A program made the position numbers and the translations under genes. A DNA stretch of 64,000 nucleotides, taken from the IMG/VR virus record IMGVR_UViG_3300009008_000005, positions 32,001 through 96,000 of that record; one strand, written 5' to 3'. Below are positions 15,361-46,358 of this stretch, piece by piece. The notes under the pieces were generated by a model, which ran no database searches, was not told where the DNA came from, and saw only the letters and a list, made by a program, of their open reading frames with translations. Each line of letters starts with the position of its first letter. Within the stretch, counting starts at the first letter, position 1. The DNA is from a virus.

Positions 15361-16782
15361 TCACTTGATGTTCTTCTCCACATGCCAATCCGAGAAGCTC
15401 GCCTTCGACAAAGCCCCGGACTCGTACTGCTTCTCTGCAGTCACTCGGGCCACTAGACCCACATACCGCTTCTTATTCTGCCATAGATCTTCACGCAATG
15501 CATCATTCAGCCCTGTGCCTACCTTCCCCACAATAGGTCCATGACGGGTCAGGGAATAAGAGAATCCTCCTGCTGCCTTGCCTGCATATTTACCACCACC
15601 TGGGAAGATCTCCCGTACATAGACATCGTGCTCATACCTGAGCTTCGACTTCACAGGACCCTTATCTGTCCAGAGGACAACACCTTCTCTCGTAAGGGGG
15701 TGCTTCCCTGAACCGATGGAATCTAATAGCTTCGACTTGTCCTTCGGTGAGGTAGCTACAGGGGCAACACCTAGGACAGGGTATTTCGCTGAAATAGTAT
15801 GTAGAAGCTGCAGCCTTTCCTTATACGGTAACTTCGTAACATCGTGGCCATTGATCTTCACTGCGTCGAAAAGGAAGATCTTCGTCTTGGCCTTAGCCTC
15901 TGCTTGGATGTGGAGGCTGTTGATGACGGTAGCGTTCAACATACCTCCCACCTTCTCAGGAGGCAGAGGGACTCCGTCTGGACCTATGGCCAGAACCTCC
16001 CCACGGAGGATAGTTGGACCCTTCCCACCCTTGGCCTTCGTAGCGTATAAGTCCTTGATCTTGTGGGTATATTCTAAAAGGTCACCGGTCTTGGACTCCC
16101 TGGTGGAGAAGGCCCGTATCCGCTTCCCAGGTCGCATTAGGACAAGGGCATGCGCCCCATCGAGTTTGGCTCCGACGATGACGTCATCCCTGTTGACGAT
16201 CTCGTCACGCTGAGGTGTCTTCCACCCGATCTCCTTGTACTTCGGCCTGCCCCTAGGGGTTTCCTTCTTGGGGGCCGTCATGTTCACAAGGATCCAATTC
16301 TTCTTCCCTATATGGAGCAGTGCGAAGTCTTCCGTGCTCTTCCCACGGGTCACGGAGAACACGACCTTCTTCTCATCGGACGAATGTATGATGGCGTGGG
16401 AGTACTGCTTCAGGAATACCTTGCCTTGGCCGTACCCTGTCTCAAGCCTCCCCTCGAAGGGCATGTAGTCGTTCTTGTGCGTGAACGTCTGCATGACCAA
16501 TGTGCTCTTCCCTGGGGGAGGGAGAGTGAAGTCCTTCCCCTTCAGGGAGTGCCAGCTATGCGCCTTACCTGAAGGGTCACCCAAACGAAGGTCGAAGTGC
16601 TTCCCGGACTTCTTGGCATGGTGCTCCTGGAGCCCGAAAAGCCACACTTCTCCCCTCGCTGTCGGGATGGGGTGTGTGGTCTTGCTGTAGGGCCCTTCCT
16701 TTAGGTCACGGGTATGCGGCCGGACGTAGACGGTCTTGCCTTTGAGCTTCCGGCTATGCCCATCTACTTGTGTGCGGCCCAT
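15361..16782 (-). CDS. ATP-dependent DNA ligase with N-terminal LigD-type 3'-phosphoesterase domain
   Basis: PE motifs QEHHA..HFDLRL..SW..H..Y..FEG..GYGQG; ligase motifs KLDG, RGEV, FLFDAV, EGVV; OB domain GKVGTG. Confidence 0.88.
   Translation of the reverse strand: MGRTQVDGHSRKLKGKTVYVRPHTRDLKEGPYSKTTHPIPTARGEVWLFGLQEHHAKKSGKHFDLRLGDPSGKAHSWHSLKGKDFTLPPPGKSTLVMQTFTHKNDYMPFEGRLETGYGQGKVFLKQYSHAIIHSSDEKKVVFSVTRGKSTEDFALLHIGKKNWILVNMTAPKKETPRGRPKYKEIGWKTPQRDEIVNRDDVIVGAKLDGAHALVLMRPGKRIRAFSTRESKTGDLLEYTHKIKDLYATKAKGGKGPTILRGEVLAIGPDGVPLPPEKVGGMLNATVINSLHIQAEAKAKTKIFLFDAVKINGHDVTKLPYKERLQLLHTISAKYPVLGVAPVATSPKDKSKLLDSIGSGKHPLTREGVVLWTDKGPVKSKLRYEHDVYVREIFPGGGKYAGKAAGGFSYSLTRHGPIVGKVGTGLNDALREDLWQNKKRYVGLVARVTAEKQYESGALSKASFSDWHVEKNIK
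15782..15796. repeat. Dispersed palindrome TATTTCGCTGAAATA (inside ligase CDS)
   Basis: Read directly. Confidence 0.85.
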
Positions 16783-40461: not shown

Positions 40462-40468
40462 GTAAAAG

Positions 40469-40557
40469 AGGAGTGGGGGGGATTCGAACCCCCGGGGGAC
40501 CTCACGGCCCCCACTGCCTTTCCAAGACAGCGCAATAAGCCTCTCTGCCACCACTCC
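40469..40557 (-). tRNA. trnS: tRNA-Ser(GGA)
   Basis: Long variable arm; loop TTGGAAA. Confidence 0.92.
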
Positions 40558-40579
40558 GTGGGCCCCGAAGGGCCCTGAA

Positions 40580-41119
40580 TCACGTCACCTTGATGAAGGG
40601 CTCCAGGTAGTCCTTCCAAAGCTCAGGCATGGACTCATCCCAACTCAAACCTGAAGCTACGAACCCTGGTAGGTTATCCGGCTTCTGGGGTCGCCTGACG
40701 AGATGCATCTTCGCCTCTGCGAGAGAAGCACCACCCTTCTTCTGGTTGCATCCATCGCAGCACGTAACGATATTCCCCCACGCCGTAGTTCCACCGGAAC
40801 ATCGAGGAATGACGTGGTCGACTGTCATGTCCCGCAACAGGATCTTTGTCTTGCAGTACTGACATCGACCCTTGTCCCGTAACCAGATATTCTTCCTGTT
40901 TAGACGTACGCCCCTCTTGAAGAAGAGGTTAGAATGCCTGTTGAACCTAACTACGGCTGGGGTCTTGTAGGTGCGGTCACTGTATGTGCGAATGATCTTG
41001 TCCGGGTCTTCGTACTCCTCCACTACAGAGGCCCTACCGGACAGCACCATAGTGATCGAATCGAACCAACCCACACAGCGGAGTGGAACATAACTACTGG
41101 ACAAGACTAAAGTTTCCAT
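40580..41119 (-). CDS. HNH endonuclease
   Basis: LVLSSSYVPL; RDKGRCQYC; TVDHVIPRCSGG..WGNIVTCCDGCNQKKG. Confidence 0.92.
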   Translation of the reverse strand: METLVLSSSYVPLRCVGWFDSITMVLSGRASVVEEYEDPDKIIRTYSDRTYKTPAVVRFNRHSNLFFKRGVRLNRKNIWLRDKGRCQYCKTKILLRDMTVDHVIPRCSGGTTAWGNIVTCCDGCNQKKGGASLAEAKMHLVRRPQKPDNLPGFVASGLSWDESMPELWKDYLEPFIKVT

Positions 41120-41134
41120 GACTACACCTCTCCT

Positions 41135-41158
41135 ACCTCCCTTAGTGTAACAGTTTTA
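41135..41158. repeat. 24-bp direct repeat, copy 2; reads as extended -10 (TGTTACACT) plus RBS-like GGGAGGT on the minus strand
   Basis: Directly upstream of the HNH gene. Confidence 0.8.
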
Positions 41159-41170
41159 GCCACCACGTAT

Positions 41171-41288
41171 TTCCTGCCCTCAACCCGACGATCCGCCGTG
41201 TGACGTCCCCAGGTTACTTAGGCCCTCCCCGCCGGGAGGGTACAACCCCAGCACCAACCGGCGTACACCCGGCGGTATTAGACAGGAA
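41171..41288 (-). ncRNA. Candidate structured ncRNA (rod-like)
   Basis: Closing stem TTCCTGTC/GGCAGGAA; internal CCGCCGGG/CCCGGCGG stem; no credible ORF. Confidence 0.45.
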
Positions 41289-41289
41289 T

Positions 41290-41383
41290 TGGAGGATAGG
41301 GAGGGATTCGAACCCTCGGAGGACATCGCTGCCCTCACCGCCTTAGCAGGACGGCGCAATAAGCCAGACTCTGCCACCTATCC
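41290..41383 (-). tRNA. trnS: tRNA-Ser(GCU)
   Basis: Long variable arm; loop CTGCTAA; CCA encoded. Confidence 0.95.
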
Positions 41384-41386
41384 AAG

Positions 41387-41460
41387 TAGGGTGAGTGGGA
41401 TTCGAACCCACGATCCTCGGATTAAAAGTCCGATGCCTTACCAGACTTGGCCACCACCCT
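41387..41460 (-). tRNA. trnK: tRNA-Lys(UUU)
   Basis: Cloverleaf; loop CTTTTAA. Confidence 0.95.
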
Positions 41461-41464
41461 GTAG

Positions 41465-41538
41465 AGCCGGGAAGGGGAATCGAACCCCTGACCTGCGGAT
41501 TACAAAACCACTGCTACTACCAACTGAGCTACCCCGGC
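41465..41538 (-). tRNA. trnT: tRNA-Thr(UGU)
   Basis: Cloverleaf; loop TTTGTAA. Confidence 0.92.
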
Positions 41539-41539
41539 A

Positions 41540-41631
41540 TGGAGGAGCAGGAGGGATTCGAACCCCCGGAAGATGCATGCACCTTCGGTGGCTTTCAAGG
41601 CCACTGCGATCAACCGCTCTGCCACTGCTCC
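41540..41631 (-). tRNA. trnS: tRNA-Ser(UGA)
   Basis: Long variable arm; loop CTTGAAA; CCA encoded. Confidence 0.95.
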
Positions 41632-41683
41632 GTAAGGTTCTCCCAGTAAGGTTCTACTATATAGGAAGAACCGGAACCATCAG

Positions 41684-41756
41684 AGCCCGAGGCGGGATTC
41701 GAACCCGCAACCCCCTGCTTACGACACAGGTGCACAGCCAGTTGTGCTTCTCGGGC
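41684..41756 (-). tRNA. trnT: tRNA-Thr(CGU)
   Basis: Cloverleaf; loop GTCGTAA. Confidence 0.88.
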
Positions 41757-41757
41757 A

Positions 41758-41832
41758 TGGGCCCTCAGGGATTCGAACCCTGGATCGACCGGTTATGAGC
41801 CGGTGGCTTTAACCAGACTAAGCTAAAGGCCC
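41758..41832 (-). tRNA. trnI: tRNA with CAU anticodon, Ile2 (lysidine) type
   Basis: Loop CTCATAA; GGGCC acceptor and TTAAAGC D-arm resemble Ile2; elongator Met not excluded. Confidence 0.8.
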
Positions 41833-41833
41833 T

Positions 41834-42562
41834 CTAGACTTCGAGTACCATATCATTCCTGAATCGCTCGTCAATGCGGTGCCTGTACCCTCTTGGGTTG
41901 CAGACCACCAGAGTGTCGTGAATCTCGTACTCTGCGTGGTCGTGCATGTGTCCATGGACCCAGACGTTCGGCTTCAACTCCCGGATCACGCCCTCCAGAG
42001 GTGTGAAATAGAAGGCGTTCATCTCGGAGAACTTGTACCAGGGCATGACGCTCTGCTCTGAAGGGGCGTGGTGTGTGATTACCACGTCACCCTGAGAGAC
42101 ATTCTGCTTCAGGAACTCGACCGCCTCCTTGTTCGCATCGAAGACCCAGGATGCGAAGCGCTCGATGAGGTGGAAGTCGGACATCCCCCGCTGGTTCACT
42201 GGTAGCTCTGCCTGATACGAGGGTGGGAACCATAAGGTCGTCCCGTGGAAAGTTGTACCTTCTAGAGTCACACTGGAATTCTGGAGCGGGTATATCTGGT
42301 CTCCCCACTTGTTCTTTAGCCACTCGAACTTCTCCGCTACAGCCTCCCTGGATGCATGATAGTGCTCGTGATTCCCGGCTACGAGTATGAGGCGATCCCA
42401 CTTCTTCAGGATCTCACGTATAGGGGCTCCCAGCTGGTAGCAGATGCTTAGGTCCCCGGCTGAGATGAGTGTAGGTGCGACCGGCACAATCTCGTTGAAC
42501 GCCTCCCTGCCGGGGGATTTGTAGAACTCGATATGGAGGTCGGATACAGGTTGTACTAACAT
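41834..42562 (-). CDS. Calcineurin-like metallophosphoesterase
   Basis: SDLHIE, AGDL, GNHEHY, ITHHAP, VHGHMH, CNPRGY motifs. Confidence 0.92.
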   Translation of the reverse strand: MLVQPVSDLHIEFYKSPGREAFNEIVPVAPTLISAGDLSICYQLGAPIREILKKWDRLILVAGNHEHYHASREAVAEKFEWLKNKWGDQIYPLQNSSVTLEGTTFHGTTLWFPPSYQAELPVNQRGMSDFHLIERFASWVFDANKEAVEFLKQNVSQGDVVITHHAPSEQSVMPWYKFSEMNAFYFTPLEGVIRELKPNVWVHGHMHDHAEYEIHDTLVVCNPRGYRHRIDERFRNDMVLEV

Positions 42563-42575
42563 GTGGCCTCCTTAG

Positions 42576-42648
42576 TAGGGTGGAGAGGACTCGAACCTCC
42601 AATCGCCGGATTAAGAGTCCGGTGCTGTTCCAGTTTAGCTACCACCCC
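42576..42648 (-). tRNA. trnK: tRNA-Lys(CUU)
   Basis: Cloverleaf; loop CTCTTAA. Confidence 0.95.
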
Positions 42649-42649
42649 A

Positions 42650-42741
42650 TGGAGGAGAGAAGGGGATTCGAACCCCTGGAGGACATCTCTGCCCTCAATG
42701 CCTTTCGAAGACACCGCAATAAACCACTCTGCCATCTCTCC
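42650..42741 (-). tRNA. trnS: tRNA-Ser(CGA)
   Basis: Long variable arm; loop TTCGAAA; CCA encoded. Confidence 0.93.
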
Positions 42742-42746
42742 ACTAG

Positions 42747-42819
42747 CAGGGGTACAGGGATTCGAACCCCGGACATCCGGCTCCAAAGGCCAGCGTTCTA
42801 CCAGCTGAACTATACCCCT
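42747..42819 (-). tRNA. trnQ: tRNA-Gln(UUG)
   Basis: Cloverleaf; loop CTTTGGA. Confidence 0.93.
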
Positions 42820-42833
42820 ATTTCGCCGAAATA
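42819..42833. repeat. Dispersed palindrome TATTTCGCCGAAATA between the two tRNA-Gln genes
   Basis: Read directly. Confidence 0.85.
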
Positions 42834-42837
42834 CTAG

Positions 42838-42908
42838 CTAGGGCGGTAGGACTCGAACCTACGATCCCGGGACCAGAACCCGGAGCCTTACCACTTGGCT
42901 ACGCCCCA
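42838..42908 (-). tRNA. trnQ: tRNA-Gln(CUG)
   Basis: Cloverleaf; loop TTCTGGT. Confidence 0.95.
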
Positions 42909-42914
42909 ATACAG

Positions 42915-42985
42915 AGCGGGTAGACGGACTCGAACCGACGTAACCAGCTTGGAAGGCTGGTGTCCTACCATTGGACGATACCCGC
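42915..42985 (-). tRNA. trnG: tRNA-Gly(UCC)
   Basis: Cloverleaf; loop CTTCCAA; U73. Confidence 0.95.
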
Positions 42986-42989
42986 ATAG

Positions 42990-43061
42990 TGACCCTGGGG
43001 GGAATCGAACCCCTCGTTACCGGGTTGAAAACCCGGCTTCCTACCATTGGAAGACAGGGCC
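42990..43061 (-). tRNA. trnE: tRNA-Glu(UUC)
   Basis: Cloverleaf; loop TTTTCAA. Confidence 0.95.
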
Positions 43062-43063
43062 GG

Positions 43064-43136
43064 AGAGCACGGTGGGCTACGATCCCACGATCTTCGGTTT
43101 TGCAGACCGACGTCTTACCAACTCGACCACGTGCTC
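43064..43136 (-). tRNA. trnC: tRNA-Cys(GCA)
   Basis: Loop CTGCAAA; U73; atypical T-loop ATCGTAG. Confidence 0.88.
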
Positions 43137-43140
43137 GCAG

Positions 43141-43212
43141 AGCCAGGACCGGGACTCGAACCCGGACTACCGCCATACCACAGCGGGGTACTACCATTGA
43201 TACGATCCCGGC
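43141..43212 (-). tRNA. trnT: tRNA-Thr(GGU)
   Basis: Stem CCGCT/GGCGG; loop GTGGTAT; G1-C72 and C2-G71 as in the other Thr genes. Confidence 0.82.
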
Positions 43213-43216
43213 GTAG

Positions 43217-43288
43217 AGCGGATGATGGGATTCGAACCCACAACGTCCTGCATGGCAAGCAGGGACTCTACCATTGAGCTACATCCGC
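43217..43288 (-). tRNA. trnG: tRNA-Gly(GCC)
   Basis: Cloverleaf; loop TTGCCAT. Confidence 0.95.
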
Positions 43289-43623
43289 TTATTCCACTCA
43301 TCCTCGAAGAAGTCTTCCACCCAGTCGTGGTAGTCCAACTTAGCCTCATCTTGCATGGTTTCATAGTAGGCTTCGGATCCTCTGCAGTAGGTGGAAGGAG
43401 TCTTCCTCTTTACTGACAGCCACTGCCATGCACCACAGTTCTGACACTGAGCTTCCTCTACATCCTTGGAGCCGATTACCTTCCCCTCCGAATTGTATTC
43501 GTACTTAGTGCCCCACTGATACTGTGGGAGATCCCCAGCCCCACAAAGGAGGCAGTTGTAATGGATTCCACGGGCCTCTACGGTTCCACCATGAACCGCC
43601 CAGCCGCCACCTTTAGTAGGCAT
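43279..43623 (-). CDS. Zn-ribbon hypothetical protein within the tRNA array
   Basis: AAAGGGGA RBS before ATG 43623; CLLC and CQNC motifs. Confidence 0.65.
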   Translation of the reverse strand: MPTKGGGWAVHGGTVEARGIHYNCLLCGAGDLPQYQWGTKYEYNSEGKVIGSKDVEEAQCQNCGAWQWLSVKRKTPSTYCRGSEAYYETMQDEAKLDYHDWVEDFFEDEWNKRM

Positions 43624-43657
43624 TAGGTCCCCCTTTAGAATACAGTAGCATATAGTA

Positions 43658-43732
43658 TGGTGGGGGTGGAGGGATTCGAACCCCCGTGTGTCGGCGTGTA
43701 AAACCGATGTCTTCCCACTTGACGACACCCCC
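43658..43732 (-). tRNA. trnV: tRNA-Val(UAC)
   Basis: Loop TTTACAC; CCA encoded. Confidence 0.93.
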
Positions 43733-43736
43733 ATAG

Positions 43737-43809
43737 TGGACCCTACCGGACTCGAACCGGTCACCTCCGCCGTGCAAAAGCGGCATTCTCCCAGATGAAC
43801 TAAGGGCCC
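43737..43809 (-). tRNA. trnA: tRNA-Ala(UGC)
   Basis: Loop TTTGCAC; G3:U70 pair. Confidence 0.95.
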
Positions 43810-43812
43810 ATA

Positions 43813-44100
43813 TTATTTTCTCTTCCTGCGCCGAGCCTCCCGCATCCTATCAGCGTTCGCCCTACGGCAGTCCTGGCATCTGCACCCATCACGACTGTAC
43901 CGACCATACTCGCCGTGAGCGTACTCTTTCTTCTTACGAGTAGTCCACCCAGCCAAAGCAGCATGTGACTCAGAACAGAAAAACCTCTCCTGGTCACGGG
44001 GACCGACATCGCAAAGGAGATGCAGAAAAAGGGTAACAAGGTTCGGAAGGGGGCAAGAAAGGGGGCAAGAGCGGAATCCTTTGTCAATACTCGTCCGCAT
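43813..44100 (-). CDS. Small Zn-binding protein with C-terminal HG..GRY..GCRCxxC motif
   Basis: C-terminal motif typical of phage HNH-associated proteins; start uncertain. Confidence 0.5.
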   Translation of the reverse strand: MRTSIDKGFRSCPLSCPLPNLVTLFLHLLCDVGPRDQERFFCSESHAALAGWTTRKKKEYAHGEYGRYSRDGCRCQDCRRANADRMREARRRKRK

Positions 44101-44117
44101 CCATTTGTGCTACATAG

Positions 44118-44193
44118 AGGAAGTGGTGGGATTTGAACCCACGACCTCAGGCTTCGGAGACCTGTGCTCTATTCCAAGCTGAGCTACACTTCC
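44118..44193 (-). tRNA. trnR: tRNA-Arg(CCG)
   Basis: Cloverleaf; loop CTCCGAA. Confidence 0.93.
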
Positions 44194-44195
44194 AA

Positions 44196-44274
44196 TGGTA
44201 GGAGTGGAGGGATTCGAACCCCCGACACCCGGCTCCGTAGACCGGTGCTCTGGTCCAGACTGAGCTACACTCCT
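44196..44274 (-). tRNA. trnR: tRNA-Arg(ACG)
   Basis: Loop CTACGGA; CCA encoded. Confidence 0.95.
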
Positions 44275-44312
44275 ATGCGGCGGGGTGCCTATCCAGACTA
44301 GACTACACCCTC
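44275..44312 (-). pseudogene. 5' half-tRNA fragment
   Basis: GAGGGTG-TA-GTCT-AGTCTGGAT-AGGC D-arm, then ends; no anticodon loop or T-arm. Confidence 0.7.
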
Positions 44313-44313
44313 G

Positions 44314-44391
44314 TGGTCGGAATGGCCGGATTCGAACCCACGATTTCCGCCTTGAGAGGGCGGCGTCCTAAGCCAGCTAGACTACAGGGCC
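44314..44391 (-). pseudogene. Chimeric tRNA: Glu(CUC) body fused at the T-loop to a foreign (Pro-like) 3' end
   Basis: 5' GGCCCTG cannot pair with 3' CATTCCG-ACCA; the mismatch begins right after TTCGAAT. Confidence 0.75.
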
Positions 44392-44395
44392 ATAG

Positions 44396-44468
44396 CACCC
44401 CCGACAGGACTCGAACCTGCATATCCCTGATTAGAAGTCAGGTGCCTGTCCAGTTAGACTACGGGGGT
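44396..44468 (-). tRNA. trnR: tRNA-Arg(UCU)
   Basis: Cloverleaf; loop CTTCTAA. Confidence 0.95.
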
Positions 44469-44469
44469 A

Positions 44470-44562
44470 TGGTGGGGAGAGAGGGATTCGAACCCCCAAT
44501 GTTCACTCATTAGAGAACGGATTTACAGTCCGTCGCAGAACCTCCATCTCTGCAGTCTCCCC
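44470..44562 (-). tRNA. trnY: tRNA-Tyr(GUA)
   Basis: Loop CTGTAAA; long variable region; CCA encoded. Confidence 0.9.
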
Positions 44563-44563
44563 T

Positions 44564-44641
44564 TGGTGCGCTAGGGAGGACTCGAACCTCCAACATCCGG
44601 CCTCTCAGACCGGCGACTCTACCAGATTGGCCTACTAGCGC
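44564..44641 (-). tRNA. trnL: tRNA-Leu(GAG), short variable loop
   Basis: Loop CTGAGAG; A73; 5-nt variable loop; CCA encoded. Confidence 0.88.
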
Positions 44642-44645
44642 ATGT

Positions 44646-44709
44646 GACATGGTGGTGGTGCTGGAGAACCCAGCTCCGGGAAATCCGAGGAAAAGGCCAC
44701 CACCATGTC
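44646..44709 (-). ncRNA. tRNA-like mini-RNA / 13-bp inverted repeat in a tRNA slot
   Basis: GACATGGTGGTGG/CCACCACCATGTC arms enclosing a GCTGG-GTTCT-CCAGC hairpin. Confidence 0.5.
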
Positions 44710-44712
44710 GAG

Positions 44713-44788
44713 TCCCCACGGAGGGATTCGAACCCCCAACATCTGGTTCCTGAAACCAGCGACTCTACCTAAGTTGGCCCACGTGGGG
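44713..44788 (-). tRNA. trnL: tRNA-Leu(CAG), short variable loop
   Basis: Loop TTCAGGA; A73; variable loop ATGTT. Confidence 0.88.
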
Positions 44789-44797
44789 AAAGAGCAG

Positions 44798-44871
44798 TAC
44801 CCGCAGTGGGACTCGAACCCACAACCTCTGGCTCCTAAAGCCAGCGCCTCTACCAGTTGGGCTACACGGGC
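44798..44871 (-). tRNA. trnL: tRNA-Leu(UAG), short variable loop
   Basis: Loop TTTAGGA; A73; variable loop AGGTT. Confidence 0.9.
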
Positions 44872-44875
44872 GTAG

Positions 44876-44949
44876 TACCTAGGGTGGGACTCGAACCCAC
44901 AACTTCCGGATTTTAAATCCGGCACCTCTACCAGTTGGGCTACCCAGGC
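44876..44949 (-). tRNA. trnL: tRNA-Leu(UAA), short variable loop
   Basis: Loop TTTAAAA; A73; variable loop AAGTT. Confidence 0.9.
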
Positions 44950-44953
44950 CTAG

Positions 44954-45028
44954 TAGCCACGGCGGGATTCGAACCCGCAACCTCTGGATTTTGAATCCAG
45001 CGCCTCTGCCGGATTGGGCTACGTGGCC
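44954..45028 (-). tRNA. trnL: tRNA-Leu(CAA), short variable loop
   Basis: Loop TTCAAAA; A73; variable loop AGGTT. Confidence 0.9.
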
Positions 45029-45029
45029 A

Positions 45030-45106
45030 TGGCAGGTGGACCGAGACTCGAACTCGGAATCGCCGGATTTGGAGTCCGGTGCCTTATCCAATTTGGCCAT
45101 CCACCC
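45030..45106 (-). tRNA. trnW: tRNA-Trp(CCA)
   Basis: Loop CTCCAAA; G73; CCA encoded. Confidence 0.95.
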
Positions 45107-45136
45107 TCATTCCATATCCTAGAATATGGAATTTCG

Positions 45137-45210
45137 CACCCCCGGCAGGATTCGAACCTGCGACTTACGGATTAGGAATCCGTCGCCCTATCCAGCTGGG
45201 CCACGGGGGT
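45137..45210 (-). tRNA. trnR: tRNA-Arg(CCU)
   Basis: Cloverleaf; loop TTCCTAA. Confidence 0.95.
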
Positions 45211-45246
45211 ATAGGGAACCTGATTGTCAAAGACCGACTTTCACAG

Positions 45247-45319
45247 CGGGCAAGGTGGGGCTCGAACCCACATACTTCCGGTTAACAGCCGGATGCTGAG
45301 CCTGTTCAGCTACTCACCC
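45247..45319 (-). tRNA. trnN: tRNA-Asn(GUU)
   Basis: Loop CTGTTAA; G73. Confidence 0.9.
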
Positions 45320-45323
45320 AAAG

Positions 45324-45404
45324 GGAAGTGGTCCGGCTTTGAACCGGAATCCCCGAGCTACCTTTCGGTGTTCGCCCGGTGCTCTAACCTTGAGCTACCA
45401 CTCC
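45324..45404 (-). ncRNA. tRNA-like RNA with anticodon loop replaced by a bulged stem capped by a GAAA tetraloop
   Basis: Normal acceptor, D- and T-arms; anticodon arm reads CCGGGC-GAAC-ACC-GAAA-GGT-A-GCTCGG. Confidence 0.75.
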
Positions 45405-45419
45405 ACATCCACTTCCCGG

Positions 45420-45492
45420 GGTGTGCGACGGGGATCGAACCCGCACCCTCCGGCACCACAAACCGGCGCTCTCCCACTTGAGCTTCGCACAC
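45420..45492 (-). tRNA. trnH: tRNA-His(GUG)
   Basis: Loop TTGTGGT; C73; base at -1 appears to be T. Confidence 0.9.
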
Positions 45493-45494
45493 AG

Positions 45495-45565
45495 CGAGGA
45501 TGACGGGACTCGAACCCGCTTTATCGGATAGACAGTCCGATGCCTTTCCTAATGGCTACATCCCC
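45495..45565 (-). tRNA. trnD: tRNA-Asp(GUC)
   Basis: Loop CTGTCTA (U37); G73. Confidence 0.9.
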
Positions 45566-45584
45566 AGAGGTCCTCAAAGAACAG

Positions 45585-45656
45585 TAGCGGGACCGGGATT
45601 TGAACCCGGATGTCCTGGGTTATGGGCCCAGTGAGTTACCAATACTCTACCCCGCT
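45585..45656 (-). tRNA. trnfM: Initiator-type tRNA-Met(CAU)
   Basis: Three consecutive G-C pairs closing the anticodon stem; loop CCCATAA; A1:U72. Confidence 0.85.
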
Positions 45657-45659
45657 ATA

Positions 45660-45751
45660 GACAGCACTGACTTACTTCTCCAGTCAGGTGAGGCCAGACG
45701 TTCGGCCAGTACTGTCAGGCTCCAGTACGTGCCCATGGGAGGCGTACTGGA
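45660..45751 (-). ncRNA. Structured RNA: hairpin plus anticodon-less tRNA-like three-way junction
   Basis: TCCAGTACG/CGTACTGGA hairpin; GACAGTA/TGCTGTC stem enclosing GGCC/GGCC and CTGACT/AGTCAG hairpins. Confidence 0.55.
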
Positions 45752-45755
45752 ACAG

Positions 45756-45829
45756 TGGACCCAGGCGGAATTGAACCGCCGACACCTCGGTCTTCAGCCG
45801 AGTGCTCTACCGAACTGAGCTACAGGTCC
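45756..45829 (-). tRNA. trnF: tRNA-Phe(GAA)
   Basis: Cloverleaf; loop CTGAAGA. Confidence 0.95.
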
Positions 45830-45830
45830 A

Positions 45831-46079
45831 TTACTTACGCATCAACTTCGGCTGCTCCTTCGGATCGAAGGACATCTTTCCGTCCTTATCGAAGCTCCAG
45901 ACATCCGATACCTCACGCATCTCCGGAAAGATCACATCTTCGTCCACCTCATAGGTAAGTTCTCCTAGTGCCTCCTTAACCTTGGAGCGAAGTTTTCTAT
46001 TTGCGAACCTCTTACCCTGCTTATCCGACGCCGCCTTGGTGATGCCGGTGATCGCTGTTTTCTGATAGGACCTACTCAT
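45831..46079 (-). CDS. Small basic conserved hypothetical protein (MSRSY.KT.I.G...)
   Basis: GGAGGT RBS; MSRSYQKT..KRFANRKLR..DVWSFDKDGK pattern recalled from phage and bacterial small proteins. Confidence 0.75.
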   Translation of the reverse strand: MSRSYQKTAITGITKAASDKQGKRFANRKLRSKVKEALGELTYEVDEDVIFPEMREVSDVWSFDKDGKMSFDPKEQPKLMRK

Positions 46080-46093
46080 ATGGACCTCCGAAG

Positions 46094-46167
46094 TTCCTGC
46101 GAGTGGATTTGAACCACTGACCTCTCGGTTATCAGCCAAGGGCTCTACCGGACTGAGCTACGCAGGA
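46094..46167 (-). tRNA. trnI: tRNA-Ile(GAU)
   Basis: Cloverleaf; loop CTGATAA. Confidence 0.93.
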
Positions 46168-46330: not shown

Positions 46331-46358
46331 ATCGTACGGCGTAGATATTCCGTGTCAA
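46331..46358 (-). promoter_or_regulatory. Sigma70-type promoter of the tRNA operon
   Basis: TTGACA-16 nt-TACGAT; a GGTATAAG motif lies just upstream (46366-46373). Confidence 0.7.

What the first reader, a model, noticed from the sequence alone, without database searches (positions are those of the whole stretch)
45324..45404. tRNA mimic with no anticodon: loop replaced by a bulged GNRA-capped stem
Seen: intact acceptor (GGAGTGG/CCACTTC, C73), D-arm and T-arm, but the anticodon arm is CCGGGC-GAAC-ACC-GAAA-GGT-A-GCTCGG, so no triplet is presented. It sits co-oriented between tRNA-Asn and tRNA-His. Known: bacterial and phage Y RNAs mimic tRNA and carry a GNCGAAN(G) Ro60-binding motif; GGCGAAC here partly matches it. 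Inference: a Y-RNA-like or decoy RNA for anticodon nucleases, synthetases, T-box/RelA sensing or the ribosome.
Basis: partly seen in the sequence, partly recalled or inferred. Interest (0 to 1): 0.75.

Follow-up and report, generated by a model that had tools for sequence, protein, structure and literature searches.

The report
Phage tRNA look-alike without an anticodon
Inside the 37-gene tRNA operon of an uncultured 181-kb phage sits one gene with an intact tRNA body whose codon-reading loop is replaced by a closed 17-base loop; it cannot decode, and I could not settle whether it is a working tRNA mimic or a freshly broken tRNA gene.

Summary
Window 45324-45404 (minus strand) matches the Rfam tRNA model at 43.5 bits. 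It folds as a cloverleaf with intact acceptor, D and T arms. The anticodon arm is a 6-bp stem, a GAAC/A internal loop and an ACC-GAAA-GGU hairpin, so no U33 and no presentable triplet exist. The same 81 bases occur in three further assemblies, so this is not an assembly error.

The Y-RNA reading is not supported. The 99%-complete phage genome has no TROVE/Ro60 gene. YrlA model hits are far below threshold and are made by neighbouring tRNA pairs. The GNCGAAN0-1G motif is incomplete. Splicing is unlikely: no 10-base excision gives a canonical loop, there is no bulge-helix-bulge motif, and the phage has no endonuclease, RtcB or RNA-ligase match.

No homologue was found in any collection, and the phage has no diverged relative with readable DNA. 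Conservation and covariation therefore could not be tested, and expression data were unavailable.

My odds are about 0.45 for a retained non-decoding tRNA mimic and about 0.40 for a young pseudogene. A clearly decayed tRNA lies 1 kb away in the same array. This scan has noted similar "sealed-anticodon" phage RNAs on other DNA. The closest published kind is the T5 tRNA-like stable RNAs.

The parts
45324..45404 (-). Whole tRNA-shaped element, 81 nt including discriminator C at 45324
   Evidence: Rfam tRNA 43.5 bits; cloverleaf MFE; identical in L147, L149, L151
45398..45404 (-). Acceptor stem 5' strand, GGAGUGG
   Evidence: Pairs with 45325-45331 in 7 pairs, one of them G-U; probabilities 0.86-1.0
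45381..45395 (-). D arm: 4-bp stem and 7-nt loop carrying GG
45353..45379 (-). Remodelled anticodon arm, 27 nt: 6-bp stem, GAAC/A internal loop, ACC-GAAA-GGU hairpin
   Evidence: no U33 and no 7-nt loop
45360..45369 (-). GAAA-capped 3-bp mini-hairpin, the net 10-nt excess over a normal loop
   Evidence: Pair probabilities 0.64-0.90; chance rate 0.3-1.2%; not a repeated element in the genome
45332..45348 (-). T arm: 5-bp stem and UUCAAAG loop
45325..45331 (-). Acceptor stem 3' strand, CCACUUC, followed by C73 and a C-U-U-U trailer up to tRNA-Asn
   Evidence: same N73-C-U pattern as most working tRNAs of the array
45418..45492 (-). Upstream neighbour tRNA-His(GUG), 13-nt spacer to the element
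45246..45319 (-). Downstream neighbour tRNA-Asn(GUU), 4-nt spacer
46331..46358 (-). Promoter-like site TTGACA-16-TACGAT ahead of the tRNA operon
   Evidence: a consensus match only, with no convincing terminator between it and the element
40468..46167 (-). Main block of the tRNA array (35 of the 37 ARAGORN calls, this element among them) that carries the element

Best explanation
The element is a tRNA-derived gene inside the phage's single-strand tRNA operon. Its nearest paralogue in the array is the initiator-like tRNA-Met(CAU). It is most likely co-transcribed with its neighbours. RNase P and 3' trimming probably release it, because its acceptor, D and T arms and its N73-C-U trailer match those of the working tRNAs. 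The host CCA enzyme would then finish the 3' end. The product would be an L-shaped RNA of about 84 nt whose anticodon end is sealed by a 6-bp stem, a 4x1 internal loop and a GAAA-capped hairpin. It cannot pair with a codon, and it lacks the identity marks of the synthetases that ignore the anticodon (no G3:U70, no long variable arm, C73 instead of A73, no G-1). It is therefore probably an uncharged tRNA look-alike. I think it slightly more likely than not to be kept by selection as a mimic that occupies a tRNA-binding factor without being consumed. The leading candidate target is a host tRNA-directed defence nuclease or another protein that reads the tRNA body. Shown: sequence, fold, operon position, absence of an anticodon, and presence in four assemblies. 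Inferred: transcription, processing, CCA addition, lack of charging, and any decoy action.
For: The tRNA model scores 43.5 bits, within the 31.3-70.9-bit range of the array's working tRNAs. All four stems are intact, and U8, A14, the GG of the D loop, UUC and A58 of the T loop, the G53-C61 pair and an A15-U48 pair are present. The only abnormal part is the loop. That loop differs from any canonical loop by more than a simple insertion, because no 10-nt deletion restores U33 (and direct reading). A GNRA-capped hairpin arises in only 0.3-1.2% of random loops. There is no close paralogue: the best is 39.5 bits against 114 for the element itself, so this is not a fresh duplicate. The 3' trailer follows the pattern of working neighbours. 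The element lies in the operon behind a promoter-like site with no terminator before it. It is fixed in four assemblies. Context from papers: phage tRNA sets are now read as counter-measures to host tRNA-cutting defences (PMC10264068, PMC12445682, PMC13096335, listed). tRNA-like stable RNAs of unknown role are annotated in the T5 tRNA cluster.
Against: No homologue of the element was found in IMG/VR, JGI metagenomes, GTDB genomes, cultured phages or E. coli, so there is no evidence of conservation or covariation. The four assemblies are 99.9% identical overall and carry no information on selection. The same array holds a plainly decayed tRNA-Glu(CUC)-like relic with a broken acceptor stem, so dead tRNA genes do persist here. 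One or two mutational events in the loop would be enough to produce this state. No partner protein was found: no TROVE and no PTH or PTH2.
Confidence: 0.45

Rival explanations
1. It is a young pseudogene. A once-working tRNA gene, possibly the elongator tRNA-Met that the otherwise complete set lacks, had its anticodon loop hit by one or two insertion events. It has not yet decayed elsewhere. It is still transcribed and processed, but it does nothing.
For: It is a singleton with no homologue anywhere. A decayed tRNA-like relic and a tRNA 5'-half fragment sit at 44275-44386 in the same array. The array has two CAU tRNAs, one initiator-like and one resembling an Ile2 type (the latter from my memory of E. 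coli ileX), and no clear elongator Met. The nearest paralogue of the element is the CAU initiator-like tRNA. Any 15-nt loop tends to fold, since 55% of random loops gain 2.3 kcal/mol or more.
Against: There is not one disruptive change in the 64 nt outside the loop. The loop is not one clean insertion away from a canonical loop. A GNRA-capped hairpin is a 0.3-1.2% outcome for random sequence. The array is tightly packed, with 1-4-nt spacers between many genes.
Confidence: 0.4
2. It is an interrupted tRNA gene. The 10-nt excess is removed after transcription to give a normal decoding tRNA.
For: ARAGORN in intron mode proposes tRNA-Thr(AGU) with a 10-nt intron.
Against: Every possible 10-nt excision leaves G or A at position 33, and none gives Y32-U33-NNN-R37 (direct reading). 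The proposed cut lies inside the anticodon. The 4x1 internal loop with a 3-bp helix is not a bulge-helix-bulge motif. Ten bases cannot be a group I intron. The phage has no tRNA splicing endonuclease, RtcB or RNA_ligase-family match. The class II tRNA-Tyr points to a bacterial host, and bacteria are not known to carry this splicing pathway (established knowledge).
Confidence: 0.04
3. It is a Y-RNA-like partner of a Ro60/Rsr protein, with the remodelled arm acting as the Ro-binding site.
For: GGCGAAC overlaps GNCGAAN0-1G. In YrlA the Ro-binding stem stands where a tRNA's anticodon stem would be (PMC4201824).
Against: There is no TROVE gene in the phage. YrlA model hits are sub-threshold and are artefacts of adjacent tRNAs. 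The motif lacks its final G. The topology is that of a normal tRNA, not a permuted one.
Confidence: 0.03
4. It is a decoding tRNA with an expanded loop, used for recoding. The unpaired GAA or AAC would be read as an anticodon, or the RNA would promote frameshifting.
For: ARAGORN's default call is tRNA-Phe(GAA).
Against: That call needs a 3-bp anticodon stem with two mismatches, C33 and C37, and it ignores a 6-bp stem with pair probabilities above 0.99. A normal tRNA-Phe(GAA) already exists at 45755-45829.
Confidence: 0.04

Closest known systems
Canonical bacterial or phage tRNA (Rfam RF00005)
   Same: Cloverleaf with 7-bp acceptor, D and T arms and the conserved tertiary nucleotides. It scores above the family's gathering threshold and lies in a tRNA operon.
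   Different: A 17-nt closed loop stands in place of the 7-nt anticodon loop. There is no U33 and no presentable triplet. The discriminator is C73 without G-1.
Phage T5 RNA1, RNA2 and RNA3, annotated as tRNA-like stable RNAs of unknown function (GenBank AY543070.1); from memory, also T4 stable RNAs species 1 and 2
   Same: They are encoded inside a phage tRNA cluster and co-oriented with the tRNAs. They have a tRNA-like fold without a normal anticodon loop. T5 RNA3 sits directly beside tRNA-Asn and has a 6-bp anticodon-type stem.
   Different: There is no sequence similarity. T5 RNA3 has a degenerate D arm, a 6-nt loop and an encoded CCA, and it does not match the tRNA model. This element is a far better tRNA and carries a capped hairpin.
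YrlA-type bacterial and phage Y RNAs (Rfam RF02553; PMC4201824)
   Same: A tRNA-like D/T core used for something other than decoding, with a helix standing where the anticodon stem would be.
   Different: YrlA is circularly rearranged, lies next to Ro60 and carries GNCGAAN0-1G. None of these holds here.
Bacillus cereus tRNA-Other, a pseudo-tRNA that acts outside translation (PMC3399842)
   Same: A tRNA-shaped gene that does not serve in translation.
   Different: It is chromosomal rather than phage-borne. From my memory only, it keeps a loop and can be charged. No sequence relation was tested beyond the searches above.
mascRNA (Rfam RF01684)
   Same: A tRNA-like RNA with a non-decoding anticodon arm, released by tRNA-processing enzymes.
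   Different: It is eukaryotic and cut from a long non-coding RNA. The only Rfam hit in this region is a 13-bit chance match at 45496-45520, outside the element.

Membership tests
tRNA (RF00005) | Covariance-model score at or above the gathering score of 29 bits | tested here: met
   43.5 bits, E = 3e-8, model positions 1-71; found only with lax filters and absent
tRNA (RF00005) | Seven-base anticodon loop with U33 that presents a triplet | tested here: not met
   17-nt loop (15 nt if C31-G47 pairs) holding a hairpin; ARAGORN readings are forced
tRNA (RF00005) | Conserved tertiary-fold nucleotides (U8, A14, G18 G19, U54 U55 C56, A58, G53-C61, R15-Y48) | tested here: met
   Direct reading against the alignment
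tRNA (RF00005) | End processing, CCA addition and aminoacylation | not testable with these tools
The phage has no CCA-adding enzyme match, so it would depend on the host.
YrlA / Y RNA (RF02553) | Covariance-model score at or above 69 bits | tested here: not met
   22.5 and 20.1 bits, straddling tRNA-His and the element. Ordinary tRNA pairs score 33.9 and 27.9 bits.
YrlA / Y RNA (RF02553) | Encoded next to a Ro60/TROVE gene | tested here: not met
   PF05731 finds nothing in the 180,825-bp, 99%-complete record, while the controls respond
YrlA / Y RNA (RF02553) | GNCGAAN0-1G motif near the 5' end, in the stem formed by the RNA's ends | tested here: not met
   GGCGAACA lacks the closing G and lies in the anticodon arm (motif definition from PMC4201824)
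Intron-containing tRNA | Excision restores a canonical anticodon loop | tested here: not met
   All 10-nt excisions leave G or A at position 33 (and reading)
Intron-containing tRNA | Bulge-helix-bulge motif, or a group I intron core | tested here: not met
   4x1 internal loop, 3-bp helix and tetraloop; 10 nt is too short for a group I intron
Intron-containing tRNA | Splicing endonuclease and ligase available | tested here: inconclusive
   None in the phage (PF01974, RtcB, RNA_ligase); the host is unknown
Phage tRNA-cluster stable tRNA-like RNAs (T5 RNA1-3) | Non-decoding tRNA-like gene inside a phage tRNA cluster, co-oriented with the tRNAs | tested here: met
Phage tRNA-cluster stable tRNA-like RNAs (T5 RNA1-3) | Sequence homology to the T5 RNAs | tested here: not met
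   No blastn match in 50,697 phage records beyond chance fragments
Phage tRNA-cluster stable tRNA-like RNAs (T5 RNA1-3) | Accumulates as a stable RNA during infection | not testable with these tools
   No expression data
Anticodon-less phage tRNA mimics beside a PTH-like gene (earlier notes of this scan) | Adjacent peptidyl-tRNA-hydrolase-like gene | tested here: not met
   PF01981 and PF01195 find nothing in the whole genome at E <= 0.1

The most novel reading that the evidence does not exclude
A phage makes, from its own tRNA operon, a fully tRNA-shaped RNA whose anticodon end is deliberately sealed. It binds and blocks a host factor that recognises the tRNA body, such as an anticodon-arm-cutting defence nuclease, without being cut or used. 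That would add an RNA decoy to the known phage strategy of carrying replacement tRNAs.
Probability: 0.25. Interest if true: 0.75.

Novelty: new variant of a known kind. Interest (0 to 1): 0.4.

Why it matters
Large phage tRNA sets are now seen as answers to bacterial defences that cut tRNAs. A tRNA-shaped RNA that cannot decode, made from the same operon, would be a different kind of answer: a decoy or inhibitor rather than a spare part. It would also give a function to a class of phage 'tRNA-like stable RNAs' that I recall being noted since early T4 and T5 studies and that the T5 record still annotates as of unknown function. If it is only a young pseudogene, it is still useful as a warning. 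ARAGORN labels it tRNA-Phe and inflates the tRNA count, and Rfam's default filters miss it.

Tried and rejected
Searches for homologues of the element:
- The exact 23-mer of the remodelled arm gave 0 hits in IMG/VR and in GTDB genomes.
- The D-arm 18-mer in IMG/VR found only two unrelated normal tRNAs.
- A D-arm/gap/T-loop pattern that allows any anticodon arm gave 0 hits in JGI metagenomes and GTDB genomes.
- An architecture pattern (stem, GAAC, 3 nt, GAAA, 3 nt, A, stem, T loop) gave 0 hits in IMG/VR. In JGI metagenomes it gave 51 hits, all chance, with at most 6 of 9 required pairs.
- blastn against phages and E. coli gave nothing significant.

Searches for relatives of the phage:
- The metallophosphoesterase inside the array has IMG/VR relatives of 34% identity or less, none carrying a small-insert tRNA.
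- The DNA polymerase has no close IMG/VR relative and at most about 32% identity (about 31% over the full length) to cultured phages.
- The protein database gave one 91% relative (P0001) and one 69% tail-protein relative (P0124), but their DNA is not held.
- The 90% clusters of ten neighbouring proteins hold no diverged members.
- Looking up the spurious ORF that overlaps the element found nothing.
- Near-identical contigs L082-L086 stop just short of the element. L147, L149 and L151 cover it but are identical.

Other checks:
- Partner or processing genes in the phage, all absent: TROVE, PTH2, Pept_tRNA_hydro, CCA enzyme, RtcB, RNA_ligase, Thg1, tRNA splicing endonuclease.
- The insert is not a repeated or mobile sequence in the genome.

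Ideas considered and dropped:
- Kink-turn: no tandem G-A pairs are possible.
- SRP-like asymmetric loop: it lacks the symmetric loop.
- A His-accepting mimic via C73: there is no G-1 and no Thg1.
- Descent from tRNA-Arg(CCG): the shared CCACUUCC string is out of register.

Full report
WHAT IS THERE

The window is part of a 180,825-bp IMG/VR virus record rated 99% complete. It is a tailed phage with a tail-sheath gene, a family A DNA polymerase, a helicase and a primase. Nothing cultured resembles it closely: its polymerase is at most about 32% identical (about 31% over the full length) to any phage record.

ARAGORN tRNA genes, all on the minus strand. Thirty-five of them lie between 40468 and 46167. 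The finding is call number 32 of that list.

On the minus strand, 45404 to 45324 reads as a cloverleaf:
- a 7-bp acceptor stem (one G-U pair) with discriminator C;
- U8 and A9;
- a 4-bp D stem with a 7-nt loop containing GG;
- a 4-nt variable loop;
- a 5-bp T stem with loop UUCAAAG.

Between the D arm and the variable loop stands a 27-nt arm. It consists of a 6-bp stem CCGGGC/GCUCGG, four unpaired bases GAAC on the 5' side, a 3-bp helix ACC/GGU capped by GAAA, and one unpaired A on the 3' side.

The minimum-free-energy and centroid structures are exactly this (-35 kcal/mol, z = -3.7). Pair probabilities are 0.99 or more for the long stem and 0.64-0.90 for the small helix. The Rfam tRNA model aligns end to end at 43.5 bits, with 16 residues placed against the 6 omitted consensus loop positions, i.e. 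10 extra. Working tRNAs of the array score 31.3-70.9 bits. With default or medium filters the hit is lost, which explains why it could be overlooked.

ARAGORN's label 'tRNA-Phe(GAA)' rests on a 3-bp anticodon stem with two mismatches and a 16-nt unpaired 'variable loop'. In intron mode it becomes 'tRNA-Thr(AGU) with a 10-nt intron' cut inside the anticodon. Neither reading has U33.

It is not an assembly artefact. The same 81 bases occur in three assemblies from other samples (L147, L149, L151).

IS IT MORE THAN CHANCE?

That it derives from a tRNA is beyond doubt (E = 3e-8 in the local search). The special feature is the closed loop, and here two results point in different directions.
- In a simulation with the outer stem kept, 55% of random 15-nt loops gain at least the observed 2.3 kcal/mol. 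Being 'structured' is therefore not remarkable.
- A 3-bp helix capped by a GNRA tetraloop appears in only 1.2% of random loops and 0.3% of shuffles of this loop.

The loop also differs from any normal loop by more than one clean insertion. Each of the possible 10-nt deletions leaves G or A at position 33.

CONTEXT

The element lies 13 nt after tRNA-His and 4 nt before tRNA-Asn. A promoter-like site (TTGACA, 16 nt, TACGAT) precedes the first tRNA of the block, and no convincing terminator intervenes.

Most tRNAs of the array end N73-C-U-(A/G), and eight encode the full CCA. The element ends C73-C-U-U-U, which fits the same pattern. The phage has no CCA-adding enzyme match. From this I infer that the element is co-transcribed, cut and tailed like its neighbours. 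This inference is not shown.

A covariance model built from the element finds no second copy. It ranks the initiator-like tRNA-Met(CAU) at 45585-45656 as the nearest paralogue, at 39.5 bits against 114.4 for the element itself. The element is thus not a recent duplicate.

Genes near the array include an HNH endonuclease, a metallophosphoesterase, a radical-SAM protein, an HD-domain protein and a QueC-like fusion protein. None of them is a known partner of tRNA mimics.

THE Y-RNA IDEA

Four defining features of YrlA were tested, and none is met.
- There is no TROVE gene in the genome, while the control genomes respond to the search.
- The YrlA model gives 22.5 and 20.1 bits here against a gathering score of 69.
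- Those alignments are composites of the T arm of tRNA-His and the D arm of the element. Ordinary neighbouring tRNA pairs score higher, at 33.9 and 27.9 bits.
- The motif of Chen et al. is GNCGAAN0-1G, placed near the 5' end in the stem formed by the RNA's termini (PMC4201824). GGCGAACA lacks the final G and sits in a closed arm of a normally connected tRNA.

SPLICING

No excision gives a canonical loop. The arm is not a bulge-helix-bulge motif, and 10 nt cannot be a group I intron. The phage has no splicing endonuclease, RtcB or RNA_ligase-family match. One protein at 15361-16782 looks like an ATP-dependent DNA ligase with a weak LigD phosphoesterase domain.

The class II tRNA-Tyr points to a bacterial host, where such splicing is not known. 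I give this reading 0.04.

CONSERVATION: THE DECISIVE TEST THAT COULD NOT BE RUN

I looked for the element in four ways: by exact core, by its D arm, by a pattern that allows any anticodon arm, and by an architecture pattern. These were run against IMG/VR, JGI metagenomes and GTDB genomes. Nothing real turned up. BLAST against phages and E. coli also gave nothing.

The reason is probably that the phage is an orphan.
- Proteins next to the element have only identical copies, or relatives of 40% identity or less.
- There are two exceptions, a 91% and a 69% relative in ENA analyses, but their DNA is not held.
- The assemblies that do cover the array are 99.9-100% identical.

The absence of homologues is therefore uninformative rather than negative. 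Expression could not be tested either.

WEIGHING

For a retained function:
- an unblemished tRNA body;
- a loop change that is more than a single lesion;
- a GNRA cap that is a roughly 1% chance outcome;
- tight packing of the array;
- precedent for tRNA-like stable RNAs in phage tRNA clusters. The T5 GenBank record annotates RNA1, RNA2 and RNA3 as such. RNA3 lies beside tRNA-Asn and has a 6-bp anticodon-type stem with a 6-nt loop.

For a dead gene:
- singleton status;
- the small number of events needed to produce it;
- a clear relic 1 kb away. This is a tRNA-Glu(CUC)-like sequence at 44323-44386 that matches only model positions 6-65 and has lost its acceptor pairing. A tRNA 5'-half fragment follows it.
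- the possibility that the element is the missing elongator tRNA-Met of an otherwise complete set.

I put a retained non-decoding mimic at 0.45 and a young pseudogene at 0.40.

MECHANISM, IF FUNCTIONAL

The RNA would keep everything that RNase P, the CCA enzyme, body-reading modification enzymes and many tRNA-binding proteins recognise. It would offer a sealed, slightly longer anticodon arm.

It has none of the marks used by synthetases that ignore the anticodon: A3-U70 rather than G3-U70, a short variable loop, C73, and U at position -1. It would probably stay uncharged.

The most economical role is competitive binding to a host protein that grips the tRNA body and acts on the anticodon arm. 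Recent work places phage tRNA sets in exactly that conflict (PMC10264068, PMC12445682, PMC13096335). This step is inference only.

RELATION TO EARLIER NOTES OF THIS SCAN

The scan has repeatedly noted 'sealed-anticodon' tRNA-shaped genes in other phages. Several of those lie beside a PTH-like gene or a Ro60-like gene. I tested both associations here, and neither holds. Those notes gave me the T5 lead, which I checked in the GenBank record. They are not used as support.

VERDICT

This is a real, non-decoding, tRNA-shaped gene. The Y-RNA interpretation is not supported, and function versus recent decay is unresolved. Interest is moderate. Novelty is a new variant of a known kind: phage tRNA-cluster tRNA-like RNAs, or pseudo-tRNAs.

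Noticed in passing
window 44564-45028: All five tRNA-Leu genes (GAG, CAG, UAG, UAA, CAA) are only 75-78 nt long and have a short variable loop, although they keep A73 and a Leu-type D loop. The Ser and Tyr tRNAs keep long arms. Bacterial tRNA-Leu is normally class II.
   Followed up: partly
window 44275-44386: There is a decayed tRNA-Glu(CUC)-like sequence (Rfam 37.8 bits, model positions 6-65 only, acceptor pairing lost, missed by ARAGORN). A fragment resembling the 5' half of the tRNA-Arg(UCU) gene follows it.
   Followed up: partly
window 45418-45492: The phage tRNA-His has C73 but no encoded G-1; the base before G1 is U. The phage has no Thg1-like gene.
   Followed up: partly
window 45584-45656: The initiator-like tRNA-Met(CAU) has A11-U24 and three G-C pairs in the anticodon stem. 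However, it has C instead of U at position 33 and an A1-U72 pair.
   Followed up: no
window 43062-43136: tRNA-Cys(GCA) has a non-canonical T loop, AUCGUAG, in place of UUCRANY.
   Followed up: no
window 45657-45754: Two strong hairpins (-43 kcal/mol, z = -3.9) fill the gap between tRNA-Phe and the initiator-like tRNA. Position 45672 is A in the window and G in three other assemblies. The region did not match the tRNA model.
   Followed up: partly
window 44440-44956: Most differences between the near-identical assemblies fall inside the tRNA array, and contigs of several assemblies end there. This is probably assembly trouble caused by similar tRNA genes rather than true variation.
   Followed up: partly
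window 41834-42562 and 40580-41119: A metallophosphoesterase (phrog_1649) and an HNH endonuclease sit inside the tRNA array. The same metallophosphoesterase family recurs in 246 IMG/VR stretches.
   Followed up: partly
window 15361-16782: This ligase-like protein combines a weak LigD 3'-phosphoesterase domain with an ATP-dependent DNA ligase domain. It also gives a sub-threshold RNA_ligase match.
   Followed up: no
L071 10991-11707, L072 7079-7795, L073 4788-5504: In intron mode ARAGORN predicts a tRNA(UCA) with a 622-nt intervening sequence in three related IMG/VR contigs. This may be a group I intron in a phage tRNA gene.
   Followed up: no
L153 5878-5950 (phage T5, AY543070.1 33877-33949): T5 RNA3 ('putative tRNA-like RNA') lies directly beside tRNA-Asn. 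It folds with an acceptor-type stem, a 6-bp stem with a 6-nt loop, a T-arm-like hairpin and an encoded CCA end, but it does not reach the Rfam tRNA model.
   Followed up: partly
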